From an uncultured delta proteobacterium (lineage in GTDB: Bacteria > Desulfobacterota > Binatia > DP-6): 64,000 bases of DNA. The notes beneath the pieces were generated by a model. It had not been told where the DNA came from, did no database searches, and saw nothing but the letters and a program-made list of their open reading frames with translations. This document shows, one piece after another, positions 26,434-42,831 of the stretch. How positions within the stretch are numbered: the stretch's first letter is position 1; each line of letters starts with the position of its first letter. The stretch lies in assembly GCA_963851365.1 (NCBI GenBank), contig CAWKPA010000003.1:64390-128389 (forward strand). Direction: 5' to 3'. The position numbers and the translations under genes were made by a program.

Positions 26434-27918
26434 GACGTGTAGGCCCCAAGTGCAAATGTCCGCTTTCCCCAAAGTAGAGATGTCCGCCTGGAGCCCCCAG
26501 AGGTGGCGCCATGGCGGACACGCTGGGGCTGACCATGGGGGAGCTGGACCGACTGCAGATCCTGACTCGGCTCGCGGAGCGCCGGCTGACCCAGCGCCGG
26601 GCCGCCGCGCTGCTCGGGCTGGGCACGCGCCAGGTGCGGCGACTCTCCCGCGCTTTCCAGGGCGACGGCGCCGCGGCGCTGGCCTCGCGCCGGCGGGGTC
26701 GCCCGAGCAATCGGCGGCTGCCCGCGCGCGTCCGCGACCGGGCACTGCGCCTGGTCCGCGCGCGCTACGCCGACTTCGGGCCGACCTTCGCGCACCAGAA
26801 GCTCACCGAGGACCACGGCCTCGTCCTGTCGGTCGAGACGCTGCGCGGCGGGCTCATCGCCGCCGGGCTCTGGCTGCCCCGCGCCCAGCGCGCCCGCCGC
26901 AGCTACCCGCCGCGGCCGCGCCGCGCGTGTCCCGGCGAGCTCGTCCAGATCGACGGCTCGGAGCACGCCTGGTTCGAAGACCGCGGGCCGGCCTGCACGC
27001 TGCTCGTGTACGTCGACGACGCCACCAGCCGGCTGATGGAGCTGTGCTTCGCCGAGGTCGAGTCGACGTTCGACTACTTCCGTGCGACGCGCCACTACCT
27101 CGAACGACACGGGAAGCCGATGGCCTTCTATAGCGACCGGCTGAGCGTCTTCCACGTCCACGCGCGCGACCGCGCCCAGGGCGGGCCCGGGCTGTCGCAG
27201 TTCGGCCGGGCGTGTCGGGCCCTCAACATCGACCTGCTGTGCGCCACCAGCCCGGAAGCCAAGGGGCGCGTCGAACGGGCCAATGGCACCTTGCAGGACC
27301 GGCTCGTGAAGGAACTGCGGCTGCGGGGGCTCAACGATCCCGTCGCGGCCACGCCGTTCCTCCCCGCGTTCATGGCCGACTACAATCGCCGCTTCGCCAA
27401 GCCGCCCGCCGTCGCCTACGACGCGCATCGGCCGCTGCGCCCGGAGGACGACCTCGACCAGGTCTTCACGCTGCAGACGACGCGCCGGATCAGCCGCCAG
27501 CTCACCGTGCACTACAAGCGCGACCTCTACGTGCTCACCGACACGCGTCGCGACCCGCCGCCTGCGTGGGGCCACCGTGGACGTCCGCGAGGCGGAGGAC
27601 GGCACCGTCACGTTGCACGCCCAGGGGCGTCCGCTGGCGGCCCGCCTCTTCCCGAAAGATCACGCGCAGATCGCTCCGGGAGCCGTCGTCGCGTACCCGC
27701 ATCTCGCCGGCGCCTTGACCTGGATCGCGGCGCAGCAGCGCGAGCGCGACCAGGCGCGGCTCGCCAATCCCAAGCTCAGCGGGCGCGAGAAGCAGCGGCT
27801 GCGCGCGGGCCGGCCGCTGCGTGTCCCGGCCTCCCCCACGGAGTGAAACCGGACATCTCTACTTGGGGCAAAGGCGGACATTTCTACTTTGTGTTGACAT
27901 GACATGACATGACATGAC
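26434..27918 (+). mobile_element. ISNCY-family (IS1202-like) insertion sequence, copy B, with near-intact transposase (26511-27846, one frame break near 27560)
   Basis: A 463-aa ORF with MADTLGLTMGELDRLQILTRLAERRLTQRRAAALLGL (HTH), GELVQIDGSEHAWFEDRGPACTLLVYVDDATSRL, FYSDRLSVFHV, ATSPEAKGRVERANGTLQDRLVKELRLRGLND, FMADYNRRFA. The true C-terminus ...RVPASPTE is in ORF 27577-27846. Imperfect ~45-bp terminal IRs. It is inserted in a REP-X copy (26380-26433 and 27919-27951). Confidence 0.8.
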
Positions 27919-28179
27919 GCCCCGACGCCCCTCCCCCCCCGGCTGCCGCGGCGAAGCCACAACGAGGAACGGCCGCATCGGGCGCTGGGGCGGAAGCCCC
28001 CACGCACTTTCTCCCGCGGCCGTCGGAACCCCGAGAGTCCAGGAATGCGGTGTCTACTTGACGGGGCTGACTACGCCTCGGCCGGCCTGTTGGCGAACAC
28101 GTAGTCGTACGACTCGACTGACGGATTCGGTGCGCGAGGGCCAACGCGAGGCATCCTCAGATGATCCGAGAGGCTGGAG

Positions 28180-29223
28180 TCAGTCCGCCAGCATAGGCGT
28201 CAGGAGCTTTCGCAACCGTGCAATCCAGTCCTTGTCGGTGACCTCAAGATAGTGGAAACTCTCATCCACGGCCTGTCGGAGCTTAGCCTGGAATAGGCTG
28301 CCGTGCTGGTAGGATTCGACCAAGAAGATGACCGCCTGGTCACCCTCGATCGCATGACAGTAGTACCCGAAACCGTTCGGAGGCTGCGTGTAGAAATGGC
28401 CCGGCTGCAAGACAGTATCGAACCGTAGGGCTCCCTCGAACGTCCAGTCGGCACCCGTGACGACGTTCTGGTGCCTGTAGGTGATCATCATGCGCGCAAA
28501 CACGTTGGGGTCGAGACGATTGTCTTTGCCCATGACGCGCGCTTCCTGAACTTCACAGTCGAAGGACACGCGCTTGACCTTTGCTTCATTCTCAAGGGCG
28601 CGACCGGTGGCTAGTACCGGCTCCGGGAATACCCACTCCTTGGAGAAATTCGTCTGCTTGACTGGAGGAATACGATCGTCGTGAGTAAGCACGTCAATCA
28701 CACGCTCGACGGTCATCGACTCGCCCGTACCCTGCAAGAGTGTGTTCCTTATCTGGAAGTGTAGGCGCGTCGGCTCCTCGGAGAGAACGATAGGTGGTCC
28801 GTCGACTACCTCAAGGCGCACGTTGCGGATGAAGAGCGCGGGGACAGTCCTGTCTTGTACGCCCGAAGGCGATGCCGGGGCAGCCTCACTGATCGTAACG
28901 AGATCAATGCCGTGGCGGCGAGCTACCGTGATCGCACCGTCCTGGAACCCGGACGTCGATACCATGATCGCCTTGTTCGCGTGGACGTCGTGCGACTTCG
29001 TCACAAAGGCATCGACGTCCAATGCCTTGACGGCCTGACTGGGCTGATCCCTACATTCGACGACCACGAGATAGTGATAGCCACCGGCATCGAACCGAAC
29101 CGTAACGTCGAACTGCCGATCCGAAATCTCCTCGTCCCACGTGACCACCGCGCCGTGATGTTCGGCGCGTTGAATCGCCGCGATGAGCTGTTCAAAGGCT
29201 CGCCAACCCGACGCCGTGATCAA
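28180..29223 (-). CDS. protein with N-terminal restriction-endonuclease-like (Mrr_cat / PD-(D/E)xK) domain fused to a ~230-aa C-terminal domain of unknown function
   Basis: 347 aa. N-terminus GWRAFEQLIAAIQRAEHHGAVVTWDEEISDRQFDVTVRFDAGGYHYLVVVECRDQPS...AIMVSTSGFQDGAITVARRHGIDLVTI matches the Mrr catalytic-domain pattern. The C-terminal region has no family I recognise. Local GC is well below the window average. Confidence 0.55.
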   Translation of the reverse strand: MITASGWRAFEQLIAAIQRAEHHGAVVTWDEEISDRQFDVTVRFDAGGYHYLVVVECRDQPSQAVKALDVDAFVTKSHDVHANKAIMVSTSGFQDGAITVARRHGIDLVTISEAAPASPSGVQDRTVPALFIRNVRLEVVDGPPIVLSEEPTRLHFQIRNTLLQGTGESMTVERVIDVLTHDDRIPPVKQTNFSKEWVFPEPVLATGRALENEAKVKRVSFDCEVQEARVMGKDNRLDPNVFARMMITYRHQNVVTGADWTFEGALRFDTVLQPGHFYTQPPNGFGYYCHAIEGDQAVIFLVESYQHGSLFQAKLRQAVDESFHYLEVTDKDWIARLRKLLTPMLAD

Positions 29224-29904
29224 GACGCGATCCTCCAGCGGACGCTTGTCGAGGAAAGTACGAGATGCGCGGAGCGCATAGACGTAGCAATGAAGACGAG
29301 CTGCCCTCCGCCGCGATAGGGTTCGCGGTGGACCACGGGGTCAACCGAGACGGTGCCCCAAAACAGCGAGGAGGGCAGCCCGATGGAATGCTACGTGGGA
29401 TTGGACGTGCACAGCAGTGGGCCACGCGTGCGAGGAGGTCGCCTGCCGCTGCGGTCACGGCACGTTCATAGCAGACTGTGTGTAGAATGCAAGAGATGTG
29501 ACGGTGCTAGGTCACGCCGCGCTCCGTGTTGGGCGCGGGACACCCTGGAGCAAGCGTGCGAGCTCGGCGCCGTCGATCCGTACGCCTGGACCGTCGCCGA
29601 GCAAGAGTTCGCGGTCAATTGTCCGCTTCCCCTGGCTCACGCCGCCTCATATCCGTCGCACCCCACGATCTGGAGGGGGTGCTTCCTGTTCGTCGACTCG
29701 CGGTTTCTGCTCCCCGCTTCTTTCAGCGCCAGCCTCGCGACCGGACCGGTCTCCCGGCTTCTTCGCCTTGCGGTTCGCTCGAGGTCACTGCGATCAACTC
29801 CCTCCAGGATTTTCACCCGTTCATCACCTCCCTGCTGGGCACACAACTAAGCCGCTTCGCGGCAGGCCGGAGCTCGCCGCGCAGGCGCAGGGGGGCCATA
29901 CACG

Positions 29905-30530
29905 CTACGGTCCCGCGATGAGCCTGCCCATGAAGGTTATCGTCCCCCCGAAGGTGGCACCGCCCCCGAGCCGCGAGAAGGTAACCGTCTCTCCCGACGC
30001 GAAGCTGATTCCAGCGTTGAAGGACTGAGCGCCCGGCGAGTTGGGAATGGCGGTCCAAGTGAGACGAGTTCCCGAACTATCCCTGAGCTGCCATTGCCCG
30101 CAGGGCCAGACTGAACAGCCGCTGTCGCCGTACACTCCGTGAATGTCGGTCAGGACGAGCCGACGCCCAACTGGTACCGTCACAACGTCCAGCGAGCCCG
30201 GTCCAGGGGAACCCATCGAATAGGTAACGTCGAACAGCTGCTCTGTCGCTGGGGAAGCAGGGTTTGTGACCTCAACTGGGATAGGCGTCGGTAGACTTGT
30301 AACCTGTACGGGTTGCGCAGCAGGGAAGTTCGCCACCTCTACCCTCGCCGGACTGACCCCGAACAGAACGTTCCCAAACTGATCTACAACCGCCGACAGC
30401 TTAGCTTTTCCCCGAGTTGGGAAAGTCACCGGCACTGTCAACGTCCAAGCAAGCCCCGGCGCTCAGCACCAAGCCGAGCGCCAGCAATGACACACCTGCC
30501 CTATTTCGCATTTGCTTGCTCCTTCGGTTC
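29905..30530 (-). CDS. small lipoprotein, hypothetical (1-nt frame break between signal peptide and mature domain)
   Basis: MRNRAGVSLLALGLVLSAGAC ends in a lipobox at the tail of ORF 30401-31531. The mature beta-rich domain continues in ORF 29905-30441. Low GC. Confidence 0.4.
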
Positions 30531-30621
30531 AATGCTGCCGACCTCAGAGTGCAAGAAGAGTGCCTCGACATCAACAGCCGCCGAGCACCGGACACGTCCC
30601 GAGCCAGGGGGTGGTCTGCAA

Positions 30622-31257
30622 TCAGGGCGCCACGGCCAAGTGCGCGGTCTTGGCCGTCGCTTCGGCCACGGCGGCCGCCGGCGCGATGTGCTGGAGGTAG
30701 ACGCTCGTCGTGTGCAGCGAGCGGTGCCCGAGGAGCTGTTGGATCGCGTTCAGCGACGTCCCGCTCTGCACCTGGGCAAGCGCCCAGCCGTGGCGGAGGC
30801 CGTGCGGGTGGACGCGCTTCTCGATGCCGGCTTTCGCCGCGAGCCGCTTGCAGAGCGTCCTGACGTAGGAGTCCCACAGCGGCTCGCCGCGGAGCGTGCA
30901 AAAGAGCGGATGCCGACCCGTGAGCCGGAGCCGCTTCCGGCAGTCGAGCCAGCGGTCTACCGCCTCGGCCGCGTCGCTGGGCAGCGGCGCCGTGCGCGCC
31001 TTGTCGCCCTTCCCGTGGAGGATGCGGAGCGAGCCACCTGCGGGGTCGAGGTCTTTCGGAAAGAGCGCCAGCGCCTCCGAGATGCGCAGCCCGCTCCTGA
31101 ACAGCACAGCCAACAGGGCGCGGTTGCGGATGCCGGTCGGCGCACGCCGCGAGCAGGCGGCACGGAGCGCCTCGACGTCGGCGAGGCCGAGCGGTTCGGC
31201 GGGGAAGCGGCGGGTCGGTTTCTTCCGTCGGGGCGCGGGGGTGCGTTTCCTGGGCAT
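30622..31257 (-). CDS. tyrosine recombinase (XerD-like small integrase)
   Basis: 211 aa: RNRALLAVLFRSGLRISEALALFPKDLD...ILHGKGDKARTAPL...HPHGLRHGWALAQVQSGTSLNAIQQLLGHRSLHTTSVYL. It carries the R, K, H-x-x-R, H and Y catalytic residues. Confidence 0.8.
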   Translation of the reverse strand: MPRKRTPAPRRKKPTRRFPAEPLGLADVEALRAACSRRAPTGIRNRALLAVLFRSGLRISEALALFPKDLDPAGGSLRILHGKGDKARTAPLPSDAAEAVDRWLDCRKRLRLTGRHPLFCTLRGEPLWDSYVRTLCKRLAAKAGIEKRVHPHGLRHGWALAQVQSGTSLNAIQQLLGHRSLHTTSVYLQHIAPAAAVAEATAKTAHLAVAP

Positions 31258-31356: not shown

Positions 31357-33154
31357 CTATGGCGTTGATCGGGGCTGCGGGTTCTCTTGCCCGGTGTCCA
31401 CCGTCGGCGCCGGTACCGGCGGCACGGCGGATGCGGCCGGACACCGGCCAGCCGGGCGGGGCCGGCGTGACCCCGCCCCTACGGCGGACCCGGTCTGCGG
31501 GGATCGGCGCAGAGACCTCGCACGCGGGCACGCCGCGTCCCAGTCACTCAGGCGCCGGGTCCAACCACCACAGCCAATGTCCGCGGCCGTGACGAGCAGG
31601 TGGCGCAGGGCACAGCGCGTGCCGCCACTCCGATCCCGCGTGAGGGAGCTGCAGTCGGCACACGTCAGGCGGTCCTGGGAGTCGAGGTCGAACGGCAGCG
31701 CGTTCCGAAGCTGCCGATCATACGGGCGCAGCACCTGGCCGACGGCCTCGCTCGGGTCCCCCATCAACAGCAACTGGCTCGTCACCGGGCGAGCCAACGC
31801 CAGCATGACCGCCTCCGCCCGATCCGGGCTCTTCACGCCGCGCTTCCGGGCGTCCTCCTTGCGTTCGATCTCGATCTGGCCGCGCGCGGTGTGCCGGTAG
31901 CGGATGCCGGCCAACTGCGCGATGGTGCGCTCGTCGGTCAGCCCGGCGACGTCGCCGTCCTGGAAGCGCGTGCCGGAGCCCCCAGTAGAGCTCGGCCTTG
32001 AGGTTCGCGATACCGCTCGCGATCGCTCGACCGCTCGCCGACGTTCACGAAGCGCACGGGGTAGCCCAGATCTTCCAGATGCTTGGCGAAGTAGTGCCCG
32101 ATCCCGGCGACGTCGACGTTCACGGCCTCCAAGGCGGTCGCCGATAGGGGGCCAGGGTGGCGGCGACGGCGCCCCGAGGGTCGGCCTTGCCCACGCCTGC
32201 AACGTCGAGGATCGCCCGGCCTCCGCGAGTCACGAGCACGGTTTCGTCCTCGCCCGGACCCGCCACGTCCAGGCCCGCCGTACAGCCGGCCCGCCGCAGT
32301 CGGCACGCTGGCCGGCGGGCCGCCTCGTCGAGCCAGGCGAGCGAGATCAGGGCATCGTCGGCCTGCGTCGGGAACTGCCCGAGGACGCGCGCCTCCCAAG
32401 CGGGTGACCTGGCCCCCATTCCGCATACTTCTCCCGCACCCAGCGGCGCGTGACGAGGTAGGGACGGGGGCAGTCATCCAGCGCGGGATCGGAGCAGGGC
32501 GAGCGACTCGTCGAGGTTCAGCCCGGCGAGATTCGGACTGTCGAACGCGGAGATCGTGAACGTGCACCAGCCGTCCCGGTTGCTCGTGAAGGCGTCGTAG
32601 AACGGCCCGCTCGCGATCGTCGGGTTCCCGAGCGCGAGCACGCGCACGTCGCCGCCCGCGCGAATGCCCTCGATCGCCTCCCAGATCTCGGCCTTCACCC
32701 CCGGCGCCTCATCGACGACGATGAGGATGCGGCCATGGAAGCCCTGAAACCGCACGCCCTCGTTCGTGGACAGGCCGATGGCGTAGTTGCCGGGGCCGAT
32801 CCGCAGTTCGGTCTTGTTCAGCGGCGGAAAGGCGATGCGGCTGGCCTGCGCGGCGCGGTGAATCTCGCCCCACAGCAGCTTCTCCACCTGCGTCCACGTC
32901 GGCGCCGTCGTGACGACGACGCCGTCCCGGTAGCGGGTCACGAACCAGAGGACGGCCAGGGCGGCGACGAAGGTCTTGCCGCTCGCATGGCACGCCTTGA
33001 CGGCGGTGCGGGGCCGGCGCGCCACCGCACGGAGGATGGCCTCCTGGAGGGGCCAGACGTTCTGGCAGAGCAGGCCGCGGGCGAACCGGACCGGGTCGCA
33101 CACGACGGCCGCGAGGGCGGCGGCCTCGTCAGCCTGTCCCGGCGCGCTCGGCAT
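31357..33154 (-). CDS. phage terminase large subunit (prophage remnant); split over three or more frames
   Basis: N-terminal ATPase domain with P-loop VKACHASGKTFVAALAV (ORF 32474-33679). C-terminal nuclease-domain segments VLVTRGGRAILDVAGVGKADPRG (32120-32419) and ...RKEDARKRGVKSPDRAEAVMLALA (31357-32202). Confidence 0.6.
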
Positions 33155-33471
33155 CCGCCACCACCGCCTGGACGAGCGTCGAGCGACAACGTCTCGCCGT
33201 CCTTCCCCGCTAGCTCCAGCCCCTGCGTGGGCCTGCCGAAGCCGCGATCGGCGAGCCAGGTGGCCGCCTCGAGGCGGTCGCGCAGCTTCACGCCTTCGAC
33301 CTCGCCCCGGAAGACGCGCACGACGAACGCGACCAGCTCCTCCCCCTCGCGCGTCTGCGCGCGGATGGCGCTGACGATGCCCTTGGGGCGACCGCCGGGG
33401 TTCCCGGAGTGCCCCTTCGGGAACGGGCGCCCCGGGCCCCGGCGCGCTGTTTCGGCGCTGTTTTGAGCCAA
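33154..33471 (-). CDS. DUF5681-like small phage protein (putative terminase small subunit / packaging partner)
   Basis: MAQNSAETARRGPGRPFPKGHSGNPGGRPKG is the characteristic N-terminal motif of DUF5681 proteins, which precede terminase large subunits. The 3' end is uncertain because the ORF runs out of frame into the terminase gene. Confidence 0.5.
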
Positions 33472-33602
33472 CTGGCCCCCCGTACGCGATCACAAGCATA
33501 GGCGAAAACAACGCGAAACTCCAGAGGACGTACAAAGCACCGAGGTCCTTCGCAGGGGGAGGTGTTTCGGAGCCACCAGCCGGTGGAACACGCCGAAGCT
33601 TG

Positions 33603-33747
33603 AGCGTGTAGAACCCGCTTCGACGGTAGCCTCGCCGGTGCCCGACCGCTGGGCAAAGGACGCCGTGATCCGTGGTCACAACGCCCCCCTGAACCGGCCA
33701 AAGCCCGGCTAAAGCGTAAGATTCAGCCGTAAGTACTTGAATCTACG
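33603..33747. repeat. ~145-bp imperfect direct repeat (copy B), about 90% identical to the sequence immediately 3' of tRNA-Ser
   Basis: agcgtgtagaacccgcttcgacggtagcctcgccggtgcccgaccgctgggcaaaggacgccgtgatccgtggtcacaacg...cttgaatctacg is paralogous to 35097-35241. It lacks the tRNA 3' segment. Confidence 0.7.
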
Positions 33748-33762
33748 CGCAGGACAGCGGAG

Positions 33763-34718
33763 ATGGGCGAGTGGAGCTTCCCGACCTGGCAGACCGCGCC
33801 TTGCAATTGGCCAGACGTCCCCGCACCAGTTCTTCACCTCATGCCTTCCTCGCCGCCGGACGGGTCGTTCCACGTTCCGGACGACCATGACTCAGCCATC
33901 CTGAGAGTTGCCGACCCGCTACTCGACGAGGTCGTGAACTTTGGCTTGGTACTCCACGGGCGGGTTTCCAACGTCCCCGGCCAGCAGGAGCACCACTTGG
34001 CCGTGCACTTTCTCTACCGACGAAACTTCTGGATCTCACCGACGCCTTCCGCCTCCTCGCGCGGGAGTTTGCTGCAGGTCCGGGCAGACTTCAGCTCCGG
34101 GCGGTTTTCGAAGCGGTCCTGGGCCTTGAGTGGATCGCGAGCGAGAATTCGGAGTGTCGCGGCATCGCATACCTCGTCGGGGACACCCTAACGCAGCTCG
34201 CTTTCTGGGACAGAATCATCGAATCGTCTATCGGGAACAAGCTGCCGGAGACTTTCTCGACTATGATGGCCACTGTGACTGCGAGGCTGGAGCGGCCAGG
34301 GTGGGCGGAGGCGTATCAGGAGTTCATCGCCGAGCGTGGTCGGCAGCGGAAGAGGCCACGCCCTCGATGGTGGCCGCCTTGGTACTCGCTCGGCGGTGGC
34401 CCGTCCGATATCGCAGGGCTCGCCGCTCGTTGCGGGCGATCGGGCGACTACGACCGACTCTACAGACACTGGTCACAGGCCACTCACGCGGTTGACGTCG
34501 TGTGGCAGATGAAGCCAACGGGCGATGGACTCCGTCCGCTTCGCTCTCCGATTCTCTTAGCCCCCGCCGTAAGTCTCGCCGTCGAATTCGCCACCAACGC
34601 GATGAAGTTGACGCTCCACTCGTTCGGATTGTCAGACAGGGAGGCTATTGTCCAAGAGTGGCTGGTGCGCGAAGGGATCAACGCCCGACTCTCAACTGCT
34701 CGAGTCAATGGCGCCTGA
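33763..34718 (+). CDS. hypothetical protein (about 318 aa if the two frames are joined near 34020)
   Basis: ORFs 33763-34191 and (34020)-34718 join into one plausible protein (...FEAVLGLEWIASENSECRGIAYLVGDTLTQLAFWDRIIES...HWSQATHAVDVVWQMKP...). No family recognised. GC is lower than the surroundings. Confidence 0.3.
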
Positions 34719-35096: not shown

Positions 35097-35241
35097 AGCG
35101 TGCAGAGACCCGCTGCGACGATAGCCGCGCCGGCGCCCGACCACCGGGCCAAGGACGCCGTGATCCGTGGTCACAACACCCCCCGAGCCGGCCAAAGCCC
35201 GGCCAAAGCATAAGCTTCAGCCGTAAGTGCTTGAATCTACG
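35097..35241. repeat. ~145-bp direct repeat (copy C) abutting the 3' end of tRNA-Ser
   Basis: Paralogous to 33603-33747. Its tRNA-proximal ~30 bp also resemble the bases left of the 27-bp att copy at 6440-6467. Confidence 0.7.
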
Positions 35242-35243
35242 AG

Positions 35244-35330
35244 CGGAGGGGGGGAGATTCGAACTCCCGAGGACTTGCGCCCTGGCGGTTTTCAAGACCG
35301 CTGCCTTAAACCGGACTCGGCCACCCCTCC
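35244..35330 (-). tRNA. tRNA-Ser (anticodon UGA), class II with long variable arm
   Basis: Minus-strand sequence GGAGGGGTGGCCGAGTCCGGTTTAAGGCA GCGGT CTTGAAA ACCGC CAGGGCGCAAGTCCTCG GGGAG TTCGAAT CTCCC CCCCTCC G. Acceptor stem 7 bp, D-arm GCCGAG..AAGGC, anticodon stem 5 bp with loop CTTGAAA (TGA), T-loop TTCGAAT. Coordinates may be off by 1. Confidence 0.85.
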
Positions 35331-35465: not shown

Positions 35466-36335
35466 TCACGCCCCCGCCAGCAGCGCCCGCAACTCCTCCT
35501 CCTCCACCACGTACCGGGCGCTGCAGAACTCGCAGGTCGCCTCGGCGCGACGCTCCGACGCCAGGACGTCCTCGATCTCCGCGCGCCCCATGGCGAGGAT
35601 GGCCGTGTCCACGCGCTCCCGGCTGCAGCGGCAGCGGAAGCGGACCTCGCGCTCCTCGAGCAGCGCCACCCCCTCGCCCGCCACGGCGTGGAGAATGCCC
35701 ACCGGGCCGAGTCCGTCGCGCACCAACTGCGACGGCGCGGCGGCGCGATCGACGCGGTCGGCGACGTCGTCCAGCGCCTCCTGCGTCACGCCGGGTAGGC
35801 CCTGCACCAGATAGCCGCCGGCGGCGACGACGCGGCCGTCGCCGTCCACGTAGACGCCCACCCCCACCGCCGCGGGCGTCTGCTCCGACGACCGCAGGTA
35901 TTCGGCCAGGTCGGCGCCGATCTCGCCCGAGGCCAGCGGGACCACGCTGCGGTAGAGCTGTCCGCCGGCGATCGGCACGCGCATGACGCAAAGCACGCCC
36001 TCCCCCAGCGCGCCGCCGACGTCGAGCTTTCCCGCGCGCGGCGGCAGGTGCGTCGCCGGGCGCGTCACGAACCCGCGCACGTCGCCGTCGGGCGTGGCGT
36101 CCACCAGCACGCCGCGGAGCGGACCGTCGCCGCTGAACTCGAGCGACAGCCGCTCGTCGCGCTTGATCGTCGCCGCCAGCAGCAGGGCGCCGGTGAGCGC
36201 GCGGCCCAGCGCCGCCGTGGCGGTCGGGGCGGTCCCGTGTCGCCGGCGCGCCTCCTCCACCAGATCCGTGGTGACGGCGGCCAGCACGCGCACGGTGCCG
36301 TCGTGCGCCAGCGCGCGGGCCAGCCGGTCAGCCAC
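35466..36335 (-). CDS. hslO: Hsp33 redox-regulated chaperone
   Basis: 289 aa. C-terminal zinc centre CRCSRERV...CEFCSARY. The N-terminal domain is conserved. Confidence 0.9.
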   Translation of the reverse strand: MADRLARALAHDGTVRVLAAVTTDLVEEARRRHGTAPTATAALGRALTGALLLAATIKRDERLSLEFSGDGPLRGVLVDATPDGDVRGFVTRPATHLPPRAGKLDVGGALGEGVLCVMRVPIAGGQLYRSVVPLASGEIGADLAEYLRSSEQTPAAVGVGVYVDGDGRVVAAGGYLVQGLPGVTQEALDDVADRVDRAAAPSQLVRDGLGPVGILHAVAGEGVALLEEREVRFRCRCSRERVDTAILAMGRAEIEDVLASERRAEATCEFCSARYVVEEEELRALLAGA

Positions 36336-38013
36336 GTTCGGCGCCCGCGGCGTCGCGCAGGCCGGCCGCGAACTCGTCGGCCGGCACGAACCCGATGAAG
36401 CGACGGCGCTCGCGACCGTCGGGACCGAGGAGAACGTACGTCGGCACGCCGGGCACCTGCCAGCGCGTCATCAGCGCTTCCGCGGCCGCGTCCTGCTCGG
36501 TGACGTCGGCCTTCAGCGTGGCGAAGTGCCGCGCCGCGTGCACCACGTCGGGATCGCGGAACGTCGTCCGTTCCATTTCGCGGCACGGCAGGCACCAGGC
36601 CGCCTGGAAGTCGATCAGCACCGGCTGGCCACCGTCCGTCGCCTGCGCGAGCGCCTGCTCCGAGAACGGCGCCCAGGCGAGCCCGCTCTCGGGCTCGCGC
36701 GCCGTCAGCCCCGCCAGCCCGACCACGATGGCCCCGACGCCCGCGGTCCGCCGGAACCACCGGTAGCCCACCGGCTCGCCCTCCACCGCGCCGAGGAAGC
36801 CGAGCACGATACCCGCCACCACCAGCAGCGCGGTCCACAGCCCCTGCACGGCGACGGCCGGCAGCAGCGGCGTGACGAAGTGGAGCGCGATGCCCAGCAG
36901 CACGAAGCCGAAGAGCCGCTCCACCCAGATCAGCCAGGCGCCCCCGCGCGGCAGCCGGCGCAACCGACCGGCGACCGCCGCCAGCGCCAGGTAGGGCAGC
37001 CCGAGGCCCAGCCCCAGCGTGAAGAACAGCGCGAAACCCAGCGTGGCCGACTGCTGCGCGCCCACGTAGAGCAGGAGCGCCGCCACGATGGGTCCGATGC
37101 ACGGCGCCCCGACCACGCCCATGGTGAGCCCCATGAAGAACGCGCCGAAGGCGCCCTCGCCGCCCCGGCCGGCCGCCTGCATCAGCGCGGCCGGCATGCG
37201 GAGCTGGTAGAGGCCGAAGTTCGACAGCGCCAGCGCCACCATGAGCAACGCGATGCCCCACAGCACGGCCGGTTGCTGCATGGCGGCGCCAAAGAGGGAG
37301 CCGGTGAGCGCCGCGGCGACGCCCAGCAGGGAGAACGTGAGGCAGATGCCCAGCACGTAGAGCAGCGCGTGGCCGAGCCGCGTGCTCTCGGCCGCGGTGC
37401 GGCCGCCGAAGAACGCCACCGTGACCGAGATCATCGGGTACACGCACGGCGTGAGGTTGAGCGCGAGACCGAGCAGGCCCACCCACAGGAACGTGGCGCC
37501 CCAGCCCCAGCGCGCGACGAAGTCGGCGACGGCGTTGCCCTGCACGCCGGCCGCGGCCGGACCGCCCCCACCGGAGGTCAGCTCCACCGAGCGCGGCGGC
37601 AGGCAGGTGGTGTCGTCGCACGCCTGGTAGCGGAGCGTCGCGCGCAGCGGCGCGTCCGGGTCGGCGGGCGTGCCGCCGAGCGGCGCCGCGAGGTGCAGCG
37701 TCCCCTCGTAGAGGAGCAGCGGCGCACCGGGCGAGAACGCCAGCGTGCGCTCCACCGGCGCGGGCCAGGCGACGGCGCCGACGGTCCTGCCGGGAGGCGG
37801 CGCGAACGCCAGCGTGGTGGGGATCAGGAACTCGTCACGCGGCTGGTGCGCGTTCACATGCCAGCCTGGCTCGATGACGACCTCCACGACGGCTTCGGTC
37901 GCGGTGGTGCGCAGCGTGGCGCGCAACGGCTCCTGGGCGGCACGCGCGACCACGGCCGCCACCACGACGAGCAGTGCCGGCAGCAGCCGGCCGGTAGACC
38001 GCGCCAGCGTCAC
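36328..38013 (-). CDS. dsbD: thiol:disulfide interchange protein DsbD (DsbD-alpha domain + CcdA-like membrane core + C-terminal thioredoxin)
   Basis: Signal peptide, then the N-domain with CDDTTC, the membrane core with LTPCVYPMI and GAPCIGP, and the C-terminal thioredoxin WCLPC. A GTG start overlaps the ribBA stop. The 3' end overlaps the hslO start. Confidence 0.85.
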   Translation of the reverse strand: MTLARSTGRLLPALLVVVAAVVARAAQEPLRATLRTTATEAVVEVVIEPGWHVNAHQPRDEFLIPTTLAFAPPPGRTVGAVAWPAPVERTLAFSPGAPLLLYEGTLHLAAPLGGTPADPDAPLRATLRYQACDDTTCLPPRSVELTSGGGGPAAAGVQGNAVADFVARWGWGATFLWVGLLGLALNLTPCVYPMISVTVAFFGGRTAAESTRLGHALLYVLGICLTFSLLGVAAALTGSLFGAAMQQPAVLWGIALLMVALALSNFGLYQLRMPAALMQAAGRGGEGAFGAFFMGLTMGVVGAPCIGPIVAALLLYVGAQQSATLGFALFFTLGLGLGLPYLALAAVAGRLRRLPRGGAWLIWVERLFGFVLLGIALHFVTPLLPAVAVQGLWTALLVVAGIVLGFLGAVEGEPVGYRWFRRTAGVGAIVVGLAGLTAREPESGLAWAPFSEQALAQATDGGQPVLIDFQAAWCLPCREMERTTFRDPDVVHAARHFATLKADVTEQDAAAEALMTRWQVPGVPTYVLLGPDGRERRRFIGFVPADEFAAGLRDAAGAERG

Positions 38014-39206
38014 GTGCCGCGCAGCGGGACGACCTTGGTCGCCCCGGGCTCCTCCGGGCGCGCGCCCGCATCGTCGCTGAGCGGCACCCACTCGACGATC
38101 TCGAGGCCGTACCCGGGCAGACTCACCAGCCTGAGCGGGTTGTTGGTGAGCCAACGGATCTTGCGGACTCCGATGTCGCGGAGGATCTGCGCGCCGATCC
38201 CGAAATCGCGGAAGATGCTGGAGCGCGGCGACGCGAAGCCGGTGCTGGGCGCGGCGGGGCTGCCGGCCTCCGGCACGTCGAAGACGTCGACGCCGCGGCC
38301 CGGGCGCCGCAGATAGAGGATCACGCCGCGCCCCTCGGCGGCGATGCGCTCCATCGAGCGGTGGAGCAGCGTGCGCGTGTCGCGCGGCGCGTAGCCGAAG
38401 ATGTCGCCGGGCAGGTATTCCAGGTGCGGGCGCACCAGGACGGGTTCGGGACCCGTGACGTCGCCCTTCACCAGCACCAGGTGCTCGTTGTCGTCGATGT
38501 CGGTAGTGTAGACGAGCGCCCGGAACTGCCCGCCGTAGATGGTGGCGAGCGGCGCCTCCGCGGCGCAGTGCACCAGCTTGTCGTGCTGGCTGCGGTACGC
38601 GATCAGGTCCGCGATGGTGGCGATCTTGAAACCGTGCCGGCGGGCGTAGCCCTCCAGATCGGGGAGGCGCGCCATCGCGCCGTCCTCGCGCATGATCTCG
38701 CAGATGACGCCGGCGGGCGCGAGCCCGGCCAGCCGCGCCATGTCGACGGCGCCTTCGGTCTGACCCGCCCGCACCAGCACGCCACCGCGGCGGGCCCGCA
38801 GCGGGAAGACGTGGCCCGGCGTGACGACGTCGGCGGAGCTGGCGTCCGGCCGGATGGCCGTGCGGATGGTGGCGGCGCGCGCGGCGGCGGAGATGCCGCG
38901 GCCCAGACCGTTCCGCGCGTCGATCGACACCGTGAACGCGGTACCGAGCGGGGAGCGGTTCTCGCGCACCATCATGGGCAGCCCGAGTCGGTCGCACTGG
39001 CTTTGCGTGAGCGACAGGCAGATCAGGCCGCGGCCGTGAGTGGCCATGAAGTTGATGTGCTCGGGCGTGACGCGGTCGGCGGCGACGAGGAGATCGCCCT
39101 CGTTCTCGCGATCCTCGTCGTCCATGAGGATGATCATCCGCCCGGCGCGGATCTCGTCGAGCGCCTCCTCGATGGGGACGATGCTGGAGCCGGAACGCCT
39201 GGGCAT
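38010..39206 (-). CDS. ribBA: bifunctional 3,4-dihydroxy-2-butanone-4-phosphate synthase / GTP cyclohydrolase II
   Basis: 398 aa. DHBP synthase region (MDDEDRENEGDLLVAADRVTPEHINFMATHGRGLICL) and GTP cyclohydrolase II region (LVKGDV...VLVRPHLEYLPGDIFGY...GRG). Confidence 0.95.
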   Translation of the reverse strand: MPRRSGSSIVPIEEALDEIRAGRMIILMDDEDRENEGDLLVAADRVTPEHINFMATHGRGLICLSLTQSQCDRLGLPMMVRENRSPLGTAFTVSIDARNGLGRGISAAARAATIRTAIRPDASSADVVTPGHVFPLRARRGGVLVRAGQTEGAVDMARLAGLAPAGVICEIMREDGAMARLPDLEGYARRHGFKIATIADLIAYRSQHDKLVHCAAEAPLATIYGGQFRALVYTTDIDDNEHLVLVKGDVTGPEPVLVRPHLEYLPGDIFGYAPRDTRTLLHRSMERIAAEGRGVILYLRRPGRGVDVFDVPEAGSPAAPSTGFASPRSSIFRDFGIGAQILRDIGVRKIRWLTNNPLRLVSLPGYGLEIVEWVPLSDDAGARPEEPGATKVVPLRGT

Positions 39207-39303
39207 CTGTCCGGAGGATACCGCCGCCCCCCGGGCGAGGCCAGCGGCGAGGCCGGGGCCACCGCCAGAACCTTCGCGGGTCGATGGTGGGCGGACTGAC
39301 GGG

Positions 39304-39558
39304 TCAGTCGGCGGGCGCGGAGCGCGGGCGCGCGCCGTCGGACCCGAGGGGTGGCGCGAACGGCGGCGCCACGTTCGACCGCCGCATCAGCATCCAGCCG
39401 GCGCCGCCGATCGCCCCCATGACGGCGAACGGCAGGAGCGAGAGGACGAGCGTGCTCCACCAGTAGGCGCGCAGGCTGGCGGCCTCGTTGCCGAAGCAGA
39501 CCGGGCAAGCCTGGGCGCCGGTAGCCGCCGCGACCAGCAGCGCGACGACGACCCTCAC
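39304..39558 (-). CDS. small single-pass membrane protein with CPVC motif, hypothetical (cytochrome-oxidase-associated)
   Basis: About 84 aa: VRVVVALLVAAATGAQACPVCFGNEAASLRAYWWSTLVLSLLPFAVMGAIGG. A GTG start overlaps the stop of the upstream subunit-III-like gene (GTGA). Confidence 0.3.
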   Translation of the reverse strand: MRVVVALLVAAATGAQACPVCFGNEAASLRAYWWSTLVLSLLPFAVMGAIGGAGWMLMRRSNVAPPFAPPLGSDGARPRSAPAD

Positions 39559-40184
39559 CACAAGTACACCAGGGTGTAGAGGATCGGCCAGATGCCGACC
39601 ACGAAGAACCAGTAGAGACCGACCGCGGTCGTCACCGGCTCCAGCCGGTCGGTGAGCTTCCCCTGCCAGACCAGCAGCCAGGCGACCAGCAAGGTGAGGA
39701 CACCACCGAGCACGTGGACGCCATGCACGCCGATCAGCGCGGAGAAGAGTCCGCCGTAGATGCCCGGGGAGATCGCCAGGCCGTGGCCGACCAGCCGGAC
39801 CCACTCGACCCCCTGCACCAGCAGGAAGAGCGCGCCCAGGCCCGCCGTGACGCCGATCCAACGCTCGACCTCCGACTCGACGCCGCGCCGTGCCGCCCGC
39901 AGCGCGCGCCACATGGTCCAGCCGCTCGCCAGCAGCACCACGGTGTTGATCGCGGTGATCCCGACCGGGAACCGTGGCTGCCCGGGGGGCGGCCACTCCG
40001 GCACCTGCGACCGCAGCACGAGGAAGGCGCTCACCAGCCCGGCGAACAGCATCACCTCCGAACCGATGAAGAGCAGCATCCCGAAGACGGCGTTCGACGC
40101 CGTCCGTGCGGTCGCCACCGGCGGGGGCGGCGGCTCGCCCGGTCGCCTGGGACCGGGCGCGATCACGGTGAGCCTCGGTTTCAC
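39555..40184 (-). CDS. heme-copper oxidase subunit III family protein (second, short subunit-III-like)
   Basis: 209 aa, 5 predicted TM helices, HGVHVLGGV motif. Confidence 0.7.
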   Translation of the reverse strand: MKPRLTVIAPGPRRPGEPPPPPVATARTASNAVFGMLLFIGSEVMLFAGLVSAFLVLRSQVPEWPPPGQPRFPVGITAINTVVLLASGWTMWRALRAARRGVESEVERWIGVTAGLGALFLLVQGVEWVRLVGHGLAISPGIYGGLFSALIGVHGVHVLGGVLTLLVAWLLVWQGKLTDRLEPVTTAVGLYWFFVVGIWPILYTLVYLW

Positions 40185-40465
40185 CGGAAGGCGATGTCCG
40201 GCATCAACGTGAGCACCATGCCGATGGCCAGCAGCAGCGGCGCCACGAGCAGCGCATAGAGCATCGGAGGGACGTTGTGCAGGTGCATGAAGTTGCGCAG
40301 CACGAGCACCGCCTTCACCGCCGCGATGCCGAAGATCAGCAGCAGTGCCGCCGTCTTCGACAGGTGGAGCTCGAAGACGAGCATGCCGAGGACCAGGAGC
40401 GCCACCAGCGCGCCCCAGATCCAGACGTACAACCGGGTGTTGTGATGGGCGGGGGCGTGGGTCAT
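40181..40465 (-). CDS. cytochrome c oxidase subunit IV (prokaryotic COX4 family)
   Basis: 94-aa, 3-TM protein. It sits directly downstream of ctaE with a 4-nt overlap to the next gene. Confidence 0.6.
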   Translation of the reverse strand: MTHAPAHHNTRLYVWIWGALVALLVLGMLVFELHLSKTAALLLIFGIAAVKAVLVLRNFMHLHNVPPMLYALLVAPLLLAIGMVLTLMPDIAFR

Positions 40466-40472
40466 CGCGTCC

Positions 40473-41069
40473 TCACGAGAGATAGAGCAGCGGAAAGAGG
40501 AATATCCAGACCACGTCGACGAAATGCCAGTACAGGCCGGCGTACTCCACCCGCTGCCGGATGGCGTGCCAGGTGGGCCGACCGATGGCGACGCCCACCG
40601 CGAAGATCCAGATCACCCCGATCAGCACGTGGAGCCCGTGCAGGCCGGTCATGCCGTAGTAGTACGACCAGAACGTCGAGGTGGCCGGCGTATAGCCGTG
40701 GTGGATCTCGGTCGAGTACTCGTAGGCCTTGTTGCAGAGGAAGACGAGGCCGAGGGCCGCCGTGACGAAGAGGAAGCGCTGGGCGCGCTTGTTGTCGCCC
40801 GCATCCGCGGCGGCATGCGCCTGGACGATGGTGAGGCTGCTCGTCACCAGCACCAGCGTATTGATGGCCGCGATGGTGGCGTTGAGATGCGTCATCTCCT
40901 CCGTCCATCCGCCATGCGCGATCCGCGAGAGGATGTACGCGCCGAGGAGTCCGCCGAACACCATGATCTCCGAGCTGAGGAACCACCACATGCCCACCCG
41001 ACCGATGGGCAATTCGCTCAACGTCCGGGGATGACCCGACGCCGCGTGGGGCTGGGACGTGGCCGTCAT
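40473..41069 (-). CDS. ctaE: cytochrome c oxidase subunit III
   Basis: MTATSQPHAASGHP...MWWFLSSEIMVFGGLLGAY...YYGMTGLHGLHVLIGVIW. Confidence 0.85.
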   Translation of the reverse strand: MTATSQPHAASGHPRTLSELPIGRVGMWWFLSSEIMVFGGLLGAYILSRIAHGGWTEEMTHLNATIAAINTLVLVTSSLTIVQAHAAADAGDNKRAQRFLFVTAALGLVFLCNKAYEYSTEIHHGYTPATSTFWSYYYGMTGLHGLHVLIGVIWIFAVGVAIGRPTWHAIRQRVEYAGLYWHFVDVVWIFLFPLLYLS

Positions 41070-41088
41070 GACGCGCACCTCCTCCGGT

Positions 41089-42831
41089 TCAGGACGCGGT
41101 GGCCGCAGCCGGAACGGTCTGCGGGATGTAGTCGGCCGTCTCGCCCGGCACGCTGTACTCGTACGGGTCCCGGTAGACCACCGGCACGGCGTGGAAGTTC
41201 CCGTGCGGCGGGGGCGACGACGTCTGCCACTCGAGCGTGTTGGCATGCCAGGGATTCGCGGGCGCCTTCGCGCCGGCCACCAGGCTCCACACCACGTTCA
41301 CCAGCAGCACCAGCTGGGAGAGGATCAGCACGATCGCCGCCACCGTCACGAAGGCGTGGATGGGCTGCGTCGGCTGCAGGAAGTCGTACTGGTAGGGGTT
41401 GTAGATGCGCCGGTGGTGCCCGCTCATCCCGACGAGGAAGAGCGGGATGAACACAAAGTTGAACGAGATGGTGGTGAGCCAGAAGTGCAGCTTGCCGAGC
41501 GGCTCGTTCAGCATCCGCCCGAACATCTTGGGGAACCAGAAGTAGAGCCCGGCGAGCCCGCCCAGGATCACGGACGGGAACAACGTGTAGTGGAAGTGCG
41601 CGACCACGAAGTAGGTGTCGTGCAGGTAGATGTCGACCGCCGCCGACCCGAGCGCGATGCCGGTGACGCCGCCGATCAGAAAGGTGGCGACGGTGCCCAG
41701 CGCGAAGAGCATCGGCGTGGTGAACTGGATCGACCCGCCGTAGAGCGTCGCGATCATGGCGAACATCATCACGGCGAACGGCACCGAGATCAGGATGGTG
41801 GTGATGCTGAACGGCGTGGCCAGCCGCGCGTCGATGCCGGAGATGAACATGTGGTGCGCCCACACGATGAAGCTGAGGGCGCCGGCCGCGATGGTGGCCC
41901 AGATGATGGCGCGGTAGCCGAACAGCGGCTTCCGCGCGAACACCGGCAGGATCTCCAGGATGATGCCGAAGCCGGGCAGCAGGATGACGTACACCTCGGG
42001 ATGCCCGAAGAACCAGAACAGGTGCTGCCAGAGCAGCGGGTCGCCGCCCCGGTCCGGCAGGAAGAAGCCCGTCCCGGCGACGCGGTCCAGCAGCATCATG
42101 ATGGCGCCGGCCACGAGCGGGCCCACCGACAGCATGAAGAGGACGGCCGCGGTGAGCTGCATCCACACCAGCATCGGCATGCGCATCAGGGTCATGCCCG
42201 GCGCCCGCATGTTGATCGCGGTGGTGAGGAAATTGACGCCGCCCATCAGGAACGACGCGAACTCGAGCGCCAGCGCGATGAGCCAGAGGTTGATGCCCCA
42301 GTTCGACGCCCGTGTAGGCGGCTTTCGCCGACAGCGGCGGATAGGCCGTCCACCCGCCCGCCGCCGCGCCGCCCTCGACGAAGAAGCGACGCCAGCAGCA
42401 CCAGCGACGCGAGTCCGAGCGTCCACACCGACATCATGTTGAGCCGCGGGAAACGCCATGTCCGGCGCGCCGACCATGATCGGCAGCAGGAAATTGCCGA
42501 AGGCGCCGAGCAGGATCGGCATGGCGGCGAAGAACACCATGATGGTGCCGTGCATCGTCACCAGCGAGATGTAGAACTCCGGCGGCACGATGCCTTCGTA
42601 CATGGTGGGCTCGGGCACCCAGCCCATGAGCGGCACCGCCGTCTCCGGCCAGGCCAGCTGCCAGCGCATCAGGTAGGCGGCGATGCCGCCGAGCACCGCC
42701 ATGAACGTGCCGATGCCGAGGTACTGCTTGCCGATCACCTTGTGATCGACGGAGAAGACGTATTTCGACCAGAATGTGGTGGGTTCGGGGTGTTCCGCGT
42801 GGTGCGGAACATGTGTGGCTGGCGTGCTCAT
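41089..42831 (-). CDS. ctaD: cytochrome c oxidase subunit I (aa3/caa3 type); contains a ~48-codon out-of-frame stretch near 42300-42450
   Basis: 580 aa from MSTPATHV. Canonical HGTIMVFF, WFFGHPEVYVILLPGFGI, HHMF, VAHFHY motifs. Residues 129-176 are non-homologous, consistent with paired indels. Confidence 0.9.
   Translation of the reverse strand: MSTPATHVPHHAEHPEPTTFWSKYVFSVDHKVIGKQYLGIGTFMAVLGGIAAYLMRWQLAWPETAVPLMGWVPEPTMYEGIVPPEFYISLVTMHGTIMVFFAAMPILLGAFGNFLLPIMVGAPDMAFPAAQHDVGVDARTRVAGAAGVASSSRAARRRAGGRPIRRCRRKPPTRASNWGINLWLIALALEFASFLMGGVNFLTTAINMRAPGMTLMRMPMLVWMQLTAAVLFMLSVGPLVAGAIMMLLDRVAGTGFFLPDRGGDPLLWQHLFWFFGHPEVYVILLPGFGIILEILPVFARKPLFGYRAIIWATIAAGALSFIVWAHHMFISGIDARLATPFSITTILISVPFAVMMFAMIATLYGGSIQFTTPMLFALGTVATFLIGGVTGIALGSAAVDIYLHDTYFVVAHFHYTLFPSVILGGLAGLYFWFPKMFGRMLNEPLGKLHFWLTTISFNFVFIPLFLVGMSGHHRRIYNPYQYDFLQPTQPIHAFVTVAAIVLILSQLVLLVNVVWSLVAGAKAPANPWHANTLEWQTSSPPPHGNFHAVPVVYRDPYEYSVPGETADYIPQTVPAAATAS

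What the first reader, a model, noticed from the sequence alone, without database searches (positions are those of the whole stretch)
28180..30600. Low-GC patch encoding an Mrr-catalytic-domain fusion to an uncharacterised ~230-aa domain, a candidate single-gene defence or nuclease effector
The 347-aa protein has a recognisable restriction-endonuclease-like N-terminal domain: an Mrr_cat-type PD-(D/E)xK fold, with D..FDV...YLVVVECRD. The C-terminal two-thirds (..RNVRLEVVDGPPIVLSEEPTRLHFQIRN...WTFEGALRFDTVLQPGHFYTQPPNGFGYYCHAIEGDQAVIFLVESYQHGSLFQAKL..) matches nothing I recognise. It lies in the lowest-GC stretch of the window, between an IS copy and a prophage remnant and beside an IS110-like start motif and a frame-broken lipoprotein. 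That is typical context for defence islands. Architectures pairing an Mrr-like nuclease with a novel sensor domain are a recurring theme in newly described antiphage systems.
Basis: partly seen in the sequence, partly recalled or inferred. Interest (0 to 1): 0.7.

Follow-up and report, generated by a model that had tools for sequence, protein, structure and literature searches.

The report
Solitary Mrr-type nuclease with novel tail
An intact, horizontally acquired gene encodes a restriction-type DNA-cutting domain fused to a 230-residue module that matches no known protein domain; it is a credible but untested candidate for a one-gene anti-phage nuclease.

The parts
28180..29223 (-). Complete gene, 347 aa plus TGA stop (28180-28182): Mrr_cat head plus a family-specific C-terminal module
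   Evidence: ORF list. Coding GC pattern. 126 homologues, nearly all full length. Coordinates verified.
29231..29236 (-). Shine-Dalgarno GGAGGA, 7 nt upstream of the TTG start (29221-29223)
   Evidence: Read directly from the sequence. Homologues start at the equivalent residue.
28888..29208 (-). N-terminal Mrr_cat PD-(D/E)xK nuclease domain (residues 6-112). Putative active site: D39 (29107-29109), E56 (29056-29058), R58 (29050-29052, AGG; K in 60 of 73 relatives), invariant K76 (28996-28998).
28489..28878 (-). Middle sub-domain (residues ~116-245): long antiparallel beta-strands (122-139, 193-206, 214-231) with helices; acidic; no known counterpart
28183..28488 (-). SH3/Tudor-like beta-barrel plus two C-terminal helices (residues 246-347). 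It carries the family signature: G275-x-F277-Y278, Y287-Y288-C289, V-E303-S-Y-Q-H-G308, D330, R336-L337.

Best explanation
The gene encodes a stand-alone, horizontally mobile DNA endonuclease of the restriction/defence type. The N-terminal Mrr-type PD-(D/E)xK domain (D39, E56, R/K58, K76) would cut DNA. The family-specific 230-residue C-terminal module would decide what is cut or when. That module is an acidic alpha/beta sub-domain plus an SH3/Tudor-like barrel with invariant E303 in a VESYQHG loop and a cluster of conserved aromatic residues. There is no methyltransferase and no partner gene. The most economical mechanism is therefore type IV-like: the tail recognises a feature of foreign DNA, for example a modified or hypermodified base, and licenses cleavage by the head, probably acting as an oligomer. 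What is shown: the domain identities, the folds, the family coherence, the absence of a partner gene, the patchy distribution and the mobile or defence context. What is inferred: nuclease activity, DNA as the substrate, the recognition role of the tail, and antiphage function.
For: Mrr_cat is supported by HMM and by fold. D39, E56 and K76 are invariant in 73 relatives. Head and tail are conserved together over the full length in 126+ homologues. The tail occurs only behind an Mrr_cat head: 367 cluster representatives among 1.84 billion, starting at residue ~113-158. No neighbour family is shared among 47 genome loci. No DNA methyltransferase is adjacent in 8 Pfam- or GenBank-annotated contexts. 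Defence or mobile contexts recur. In Methylibium the gene is flanked by a PD-T7-4-like DUF4145 protein and a PDC-S21/DUF4917 protein, plus an IS and a RES toxin. It lies next to DUF4238 inside a TniABQ transposon seen on 24 contigs. It is Tn7-like cargo together with T5orf172, NERD and PIN genes. It sits in an integrase/IS cluster. On an Agrobacterium plasmid it lies with AbiE, a reverse transcriptase and another REase. Among 143 neighbour ORFs there are scattered PADLOC matches: DUF4238 x3, Ppl, mad8, PbeA, HerA, a CBASS cyclase with a 2TM effector, and type I and IIG R-M. Frame-broken copies occur in L032, L036, L040 and L046. In the window the gene has low GC and low GC3 and sits in an island next to tRNA-Ser. 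Modularity is supported in two ways. The same head subtype carries unrelated tails in solitary plasmid 'restriction endonucleases' of E. coli, Acinetobacter and Vibrio (hhalign probability ~99% over the head only). A long-form subfamily has lost the ExK of the head and carries an extension with a conserved D...ExK-like motif. A precedent for the same logic is the END nucleases: a solitary nuclease head plus a sensing tail, with no methylase, in defence islands (PMC12191111).
Against: There is no experimental datum for any family member. The family matches no PADLOC model. The tail is not a recognisable DNA-binding or reader fold. It is mildly acidic and has only one conserved basic residue, R336, which is unusual for a DNA-recognition domain. 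The window copy has R at the canonical catalytic K position. However, 13 of 73 otherwise intact relatives from several clades share this. One homologue sits alone among housekeeping genes. The enrichment of defence neighbours was not measured against a background. The neighbour ORFs in the 47 loci were called crudely.
Confidence: 0.55

Rival explanations
1. The protein is a sensor-activated, abortive-infection-type nuclease. The C-terminal module binds a phage protein or a small molecule rather than DNA. It then releases or assembles an otherwise silent, non-specific Mrr head, which degrades DNA indiscriminately.
For: The tail is acidic, with a single conserved basic residue and a conserved aromatic/acidic cluster. 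It has no known DNA-binding fold. The nearest folds of the head include ligand-activated effectors: Can2, Card1, NucC, Cap4 and Cdn1. In the long-form subfamily the effector appears to have been swapped, which suggests the tail is a portable sensor. The confident fixed head-tail packing (pTM 0.87) is compatible with autoinhibition.
Against: There is no NTPase, CARF or SAVED domain. No cyclase or signal-generating partner is conserved nearby. The protein is small. Nothing identifies a trigger.
Confidence: 0.2
2. The protein has a non-defence function. It could be a repair, recombination or structure-specific nuclease, or a maintenance or toxin function of the mobile elements that carry it.
For: NucS, Hjc and Holliday-junction resolvases are among the fold neighbours of the head. 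The gene rides in transposons and islands. One copy lies among housekeeping genes. UvrD/PcrA/CarD-type Tudor barrels, which contact RNA polymerase, are among the weak tail matches.
Against: The family is very rare and patchy: 47 hits in one pattern-limited scan of 185,579 species genomes. It has no fixed position within the elements and no conserved antitoxin or partner gene. Copies are frequently pseudogenised. None of this is typical of a housekeeping repair enzyme.
Confidence: 0.12
3. The protein is an orphan type II or IIS restriction endonuclease. Its cognate methyltransferase would be encoded elsewhere or would have been lost.
For: Mrr_cat heads occur in type IIS enzymes, and FokI, PaqCI and BspD6I are fold neighbours. 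Source databases name the family 'restriction endonuclease'.
Against: No DNA methyltransferase is adjacent in any of the 8 annotated contexts, and no family recurs among 143 neighbour ORFs. An unprotected type II enzyme would be lethal, yet intact copies persist in many phyla.
Confidence: 0.05
4. In this particular window the gene is an inactive passenger, caught in a decaying island before it accumulates stop codons.
For: It has R58 instead of K. It is surrounded by broken genes: a truncated integrase, a terminase fragment and a frame-shifted lipoprotein. No sigma-70-like promoter was detected upstream.
Against: The ORF is intact, with a good ribosome-binding site and all other invariant residues. 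R58 recurs in 13 of 73 intact relatives from several clades. The promoter scan is a consensus tuned to other bacteria.
Confidence: 0.08

Closest known systems
E. coli Mrr and Mrr-like type IV restriction enzymes (e.g. Rv2528c, PMC11279042)
   Same: Both have an Mrr_cat PD-(D/E)xK catalytic domain and are solitary genes without a methyltransferase.
   Different: Mrr has an N-terminal winged-helix (Mrr_N) reader and a C-terminal nuclease. Here the nuclease is N-terminal, no Mrr_N is detected, and the other domain has an unrelated beta-rich fold.
MspJI/AspBHI and PvuRts1I/AbaSI modification-dependent enzymes
END nucleases (PMC12191111)
   Same: The design logic is the same: a solitary gene in defence islands, no methylase, an N-terminal nuclease head, and a C-terminal sensing domain that sets specificity. 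Heads and tails are exchangeable.
   Different: END heads are PLD or NucS-like, and the tail is an inactivated EndoIII/Ogg1 helical domain. Here the head is Mrr_cat and the tail is a novel beta-rich module.
AF1548 (PDB 1y88), an Archaeoglobus protein of unknown function
   Different: It has 184 residues, an uncharacterised function and no equivalent of the 230-residue tail.
Solitary plasmid 'restriction endonucleases' with the same head subtype (E. coli UIB47797.1, Acinetobacter WP_032072977.1, Vibrio WP_086370938.1)
   Same: The N-terminal ~115-130 residues are homologous (hhalign probability 98.8-99.0%, E about 1e-17). The WxxFE, R(Q/E)FD, IECKD, DAFxxK and G(F/Y)QxGA motifs are shared.
   Different: Their C-terminal 170-220 residues do not align with this family's tail. 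None matches PADLOC.
SH3/Tudor-like barrels (HspQ/YccV, FeoA, Tudor-SN, CarD, UvrD/PcrA C-terminal domain)
   Different: There is no sequence similarity (4-17% identity). The match is generic to small barrels and covers less than a third of the module.

Membership tests
Mrr_cat (PF04471) PD-(D/E)xK nuclease domain | Profile-HMM match above Pfam's gathering score | tested here: met
   42.9 bits against a cut-off of 21, E=6.1e-11, residues 6-112 matching profile positions 5-109 of 115.
Mrr_cat (PF04471) PD-(D/E)xK nuclease domain | Restriction-endonuclease-like alpha/beta fold | tested here: met
Mrr_cat (PF04471) PD-(D/E)xK nuclease domain | Catalytic D ... (E/Q)-x-K triad | tested here: inconclusive
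   D39 and E56 are present and invariant. The K position is R58 in the window copy. Across the family it is K in 60 and R in 13 of 73 sequences. Whether R supports catalysis cannot be told from sequence.
Classical Mrr type IV restriction enzyme | N-terminal Mrr_N winged-helix DNA-binding domain followed by a C-terminal Mrr_cat | tested here: not met
   No Mrr_N match was found. The nuclease is N-terminal and the rest of the protein is a different fold.
Classical Mrr type IV restriction enzyme | Cleavage depends on modified DNA | not testable with these tools
   This needs in vitro or in vivo assays.
Type IV enzymes with known reader domains (SRA/PUA-like, EVE, YTH, McrB-N, SBD) | Presence of one of these reader folds | tested here: not met
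Type II/IIS restriction-modification system | Cognate DNA methyltransferase encoded next to the endonuclease | tested here: not met
   None is present in the 8 annotated contexts. No family is shared among the neighbours of 47 loci.
Catalogued antiphage systems (PADLOC-DB v2.0.0, including Lamassu LmuA-Mrr, Avs, Shedu, PD-T4/T7/Lambda, PDC candidates) | Match to a system protein HMM | tested here: not met
   The window protein has no match. Nine further family members have none, apart from two marginal hits of E about 1e-3 in one of them.
END nucleases | Inactivated EndoIII/Ogg1 (HhH-GPD) sensing domain | tested here: not met
Cyclic-oligonucleotide-activated nucleases (Can2/Card1, NucC, Cap4) | CARF or SAVED sensor, or NucC-type ligand pocket, plus a linked cyclase or type III CRISPR locus | tested here: not met
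   Only the nuclease domain superposes. No CARF or SAVED domain is detected. A cyclase appears among the neighbours only once or so in 143 ORFs.

The most novel reading that the evidence does not exclude
The 230-residue C-terminal module is a previously unseen class of sensor. It would recognise a DNA hypermodification or a phage-derived factor through the conserved aromatic/acidic surface of its Tudor-like barrel. It would also be portable between nuclease effectors. The long-form subfamily suggests this: there the Mrr head has lost its ExK and a new D...ExK-bearing domain is appended. The family would then define a new single-gene immune system with a new recognition principle.
Probability: 0.3. 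Interest if true: 0.7.

Novelty: new variant of a known kind. Interest (0 to 1): 0.5.

Why it matters
Single-chain 'nuclease head plus reader tail' enzymes are a source of new anti-phage systems. They have also yielded tools for mapping DNA modifications, as MspJI, AbaSI and PvuRts1I did. A reader or sensor domain with no known relative would, if it recognises a DNA modification or a phage cue, add a new recognition principle and possibly a new reagent. The family is compact (~350 aa, one gene), widely distributed and confidently modelled, so it can be tested directly by cloning. If it turns out to be an ordinary non-specific nuclease, little is lost.

Tried and rejected
I searched the whole protein and a 73-sequence profile against PDB sequences. 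Only chance-level matches came back: a ferredoxin at E=0.007 and a D-Ala-D-Ala ligase at E=1.5. The C-terminal profile found nothing.

NCBIfam gave only a meaningless PrpR match of 11.8 bits against a cut-off of 499.

The Pfam sub-threshold DUF7527 match overlaps the Mrr_cat region and adds nothing.

The AFDB50 Foldseek search of the tail could not be run because the library was unavailable. A BFVD viral search gave no match at E<=0.001.

An exact-sequence look-up of the window protein's contig failed, as did the look-up for the Rhizobium homologue.

The phage GenBank collection has no homologue. IMG/VR has one locus in 2.9 million contigs. PLSDB plasmids have one full-length homologue. The family is therefore not typically phage- or plasmid-borne.

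I considered a two-gene system with the adjacent 178-aa ORF or lipoprotein remnant and rejected it. That ORF has one homologue in the database and is absent from all other loci.

The 'IS110-like' remnant has no Pfam support.

I considered a CBASS or type III CRISPR effector role because of the Can2, NucC and Cap4 fold hits. I rejected it for lack of a sensor domain and of linked cyclases.

Literature searches for an already named system with this architecture found none. They were limited to open-access full text.

Full report
THE OBSERVATION. The window has an intact ORF at 28180..29223 on the minus strand, 347 aa. It starts at TTG 29221-29223, and a GGAGGA Shine-Dalgarno lies 7 nt upstream at 29231-29236. 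Its codon-position GC (0.64/0.40/0.72) is that of a real gene, but GC3 is well below the 0.80-0.91 of the flanking host genes. The gene is 58.5% GC in a 69.2% GC window. The 1-kb bin 28001-29000 is the window minimum, and the low-GC patch runs from about 27900 to 30600.

THE SURROUNDINGS. To the left lies an IS bounded by 24-nt inverted repeats (26463-26486 / 27850-27873). It encodes a 463-aa HTH-plus-integrase-core-like transposase. To the right are three broken genes. One is a near-orphan 178-aa ORF preceded, out of frame, by a lipoprotein signal peptide. One is a 211-aa tyrosine-integrase fragment at 30622-31257. One is a terminase-large-subunit fragment at 32474-33679. Further right is tRNA-Ser at 35243-35330, whose 3' flank is duplicated about 1.5 kb away at 84-90% identity. 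Host genes resume with an alpha/beta hydrolase on the left and Hsp33 on the right. The gene thus lies in a tRNA-linked graveyard of mobile elements. The 'IS110-like start motif' has no Pfam support. Hsp33 relatives suggest an uncultured soil bacterium related to Candidatus Binatia. The exact protein and the exact Hsp33 are both recorded with a longest contig of the same length, 515,393 bp, presumably the same contig.

CONSERVATION IN THE TAIL. Conservation is concentrated in the barrel: G275-x-F277-Y278, Y287-Y288-C289, the loop V-E303-S-Y-Q-H-G308 with E303 invariant, then D330 and R336-L337. The module is mildly acidic. The middle part has a median net charge of -4 and is acidic in 82% of members. 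R336 is the only basic position conserved in at least 70% of members. By contrast, conserved basic residues are plentiful in the head. This pattern is not what one expects of a classical sequence-specific DNA-binding domain. It would suit a pocket for a base or another ligand, or a protein-binding surface. I could not inspect coordinates, so the spatial clustering of these residues is inferred from strand pairing only.

THE FAMILY. A word-indexed search finds 126 homologues, nearly all 343-400 aa and aligned over 93-100% of the query. At most they are labelled 'restriction endonuclease'. An exhaustive HMM search with the tail profile against 1.84 billion cluster representatives finds only 367 proteins at E<=1e-3. 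In the full-length ones the tail begins at residue ~113-158, that is, always behind an Mrr_cat head. Shorter hits are N-terminal truncations. The family is patchily spread over many groups: Planctomycetota, Nitrospirota, Cyanobacteria, Acidobacteriota, Verrucomicrobiota, and Alpha-, Beta-, Gamma- and 'Delta'-proteobacteria. One pattern-limited scan of 185,579 species genomes gave 47 loci. Several copies are frame-broken or truncated (L032, L036, L040, L046). It is essentially absent from phage genomes (one IMG/VR locus) and rare on plasmids (one full-length copy).

NEIGHBOURS. An all-against-all comparison of ORFs within 5 kb in the 47 loci finds no shared family other than antisense shadows of the gene itself. 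Eight contexts with Pfam or GenBank annotation show no adjacent DNA methyltransferase. Most of them show mobile or defence genes:
- In Methylibium the gene is flanked by a DUF4145 protein (PD-T7-4-like, E=2e-5) and a DUF4917 protein (PDC-S21, E=6e-112), then an IS and a RES toxin module.
- A TniABQ transposon seen on 24 contigs carries it next to an 801-aa DUF4238 protein. DUF4238 is an experimentally active single-gene anti-T7 defence (PMC9122126).
- A Tn7-like element carries it with T5orf172, a UvrD-like helicase, and NERD and PIN genes.
- One copy sits in an integrase/IS cluster.
- An Agrobacterium plasmid carries it with AbiE, a reverse transcriptase, a VPA1262-family protein and another REase.
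- The closest relatives lie next to a DUF559/MTES_1575 protein, or next to a ligase and a Schlafen/AlbA_2 protein.
- One copy lies alone among housekeeping genes.

A pooled scan of 143 neighbour ORFs gives scattered PADLOC matches, with no recurrent partner and many housekeeping genes as well. These ORFs were called crudely and no background rate was computed. 'Defence-island association' is therefore suggestive, not demonstrated.

MODULARITY. Two observations bear on mechanism. First, the same head subtype occurs in solitary plasmid-borne 'restriction endonucleases' of E. coli, Acinetobacter and Vibrio (285-342 aa). It shares the WxxFE, R(Q/E)FD, IECKD, DAFxxK and G(F/Y)QxGA motifs. The tails of those proteins do not align with this family: hhalign probability is ~99% over the head only. 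Second, a long-form subfamily of 560-740 aa keeps the tail but has lost the ExK of the head. Examples are VVDCIE, VVTCIE and LVRCYE. This subfamily carries a 250-350-residue extension with a conserved 'KKADYFF..R.II.ELKSL' motif, which reads as a D...ExK. That this extension is a replacement nuclease is my inference; no HMM confirms it. Both observations fit a 'cutting head plus exchangeable specificity or sensor tail' design. The same logic has been shown experimentally for END nucleases (PMC12191111).

INTERPRETATION. The best-supported reading is a stand-alone restriction/defence-type DNA endonuclease. No methyltransferase or partner gene protects the host, so discrimination must reside in the protein itself. 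The simplest model is type IV-like recognition of a foreign-DNA feature by the tail. The acidic, poorly basic character of the tail keeps a second model alive, in which the tail senses a phage protein or ligand and de-represses the head. Non-defence roles, such as repair or mobile-element maintenance, are less likely because of rarity, patchiness, pseudogenisation and the lack of a fixed position in the elements. So is an orphan type II enzyme, for the reasons given under the rival explanations. The window copy may or may not be active, given R58 and its decaying surroundings.

COMPARISON WITH KNOWN FAMILIES AND NOVELTY. The protein is a member of the Mrr_cat domain family. It is not a classical Mrr: there is no Mrr_N and the domain order is reversed. 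It is not an MspJI- or PvuRts1I-type enzyme (no SRA-like reader) and not an END nuclease (no iEndoIII domain). It belongs to no system catalogued in PADLOC v2. It works like, or is designed like, the single-chain modification-dependent or sensor-coupled nucleases. I rate it a new variant of a known kind. The architecture class is familiar, but the tail is a domain without known relatives. Interest is moderate (0.5), because uncharacterised nuclease fusions in defence-like contexts are common. The points in its favour are that the module is confidently modelled, really unmatched, compact and easy to test.

Noticed in passing
window 33613-33764 and 35108-35258; tRNA-Ser(tga) 35243-35330 (-): A ~150-nt direct repeat (84-90% identity) duplicates the 3' end and downstream flank of tRNA-Ser about 1.5 kb away. 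It looks like attL/attR remnants of successive integrations at this tRNA.
   Followed up: partly
window 26463-27873: A complete-looking IS has 24-nt terminal inverted repeats (92% complementary) and a 463-aa transposase (HTH_29/28/23 plus a weak rve_3 match). It abuts the low-GC patch.
   Followed up: partly
window 29905-30502 (-): A lipoprotein signal peptide (MRNRAGVSLLALGLVLSAGAC...) ends in a stop and is out of frame with the following 178-aa ORF. That ORF has a single homologue (37% identity) in 5.8 billion proteins. It is probably a frame-shifted orphan gene.
   Followed up: partly
window 30622-31257 (-) and 32474-33679 (-): There is a truncated tyrosine integrase with the catalytic domain only (Phage_integrase, E=5.8e-36). 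There is also a terminase-large-subunit fragment (phrog_2, E=1.3e-19). Both are prophage debris.
   Followed up: yes
proteins P0162, P0214, P0181, P0226, P0228, P0248, P0166 (alignment A4): A long-form subfamily keeps the novel tail but has lost the ExK of the Mrr head. It carries a 250-350-aa C-terminal extension with a conserved 'KKADYFF..R.II.ELKSL' (D...ExK-like) motif that matches no Pfam, PADLOC or PDB entry. This may be an effector swap.
   Followed up: partly
L063:4998-5867, L064:617-1645, L065:2395-3252 (plasmids of E. coli, Acinetobacter, Vibrio): Solitary 285-342-aa 'restriction endonucleases' share this family's N-terminal head (hhalign probability ~99%) but have unrelated, uncharacterised tails. 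One sits on a 5.4-kb mobilisable plasmid. This hints at a wider modular group.
   Followed up: partly
proteins P0025, P0027, P0085, P0093, P0166: Some family members end in a SEC-C zinc-knuckle motif (PF02810) appended after the tail.
   Followed up: no
L023:1538-7954 (Sphingobium xanthum): A 2138-aa ORF ends just upstream of the family member in this genome. It was left out of the pooled neighbour scan and was not examined.
   Followed up: no
window 36001-42000: This stretch has sustained positive AT skew (0.13-0.29) at 66-76% GC, unlike the rest of the window. It was not examined.
   Followed up: no
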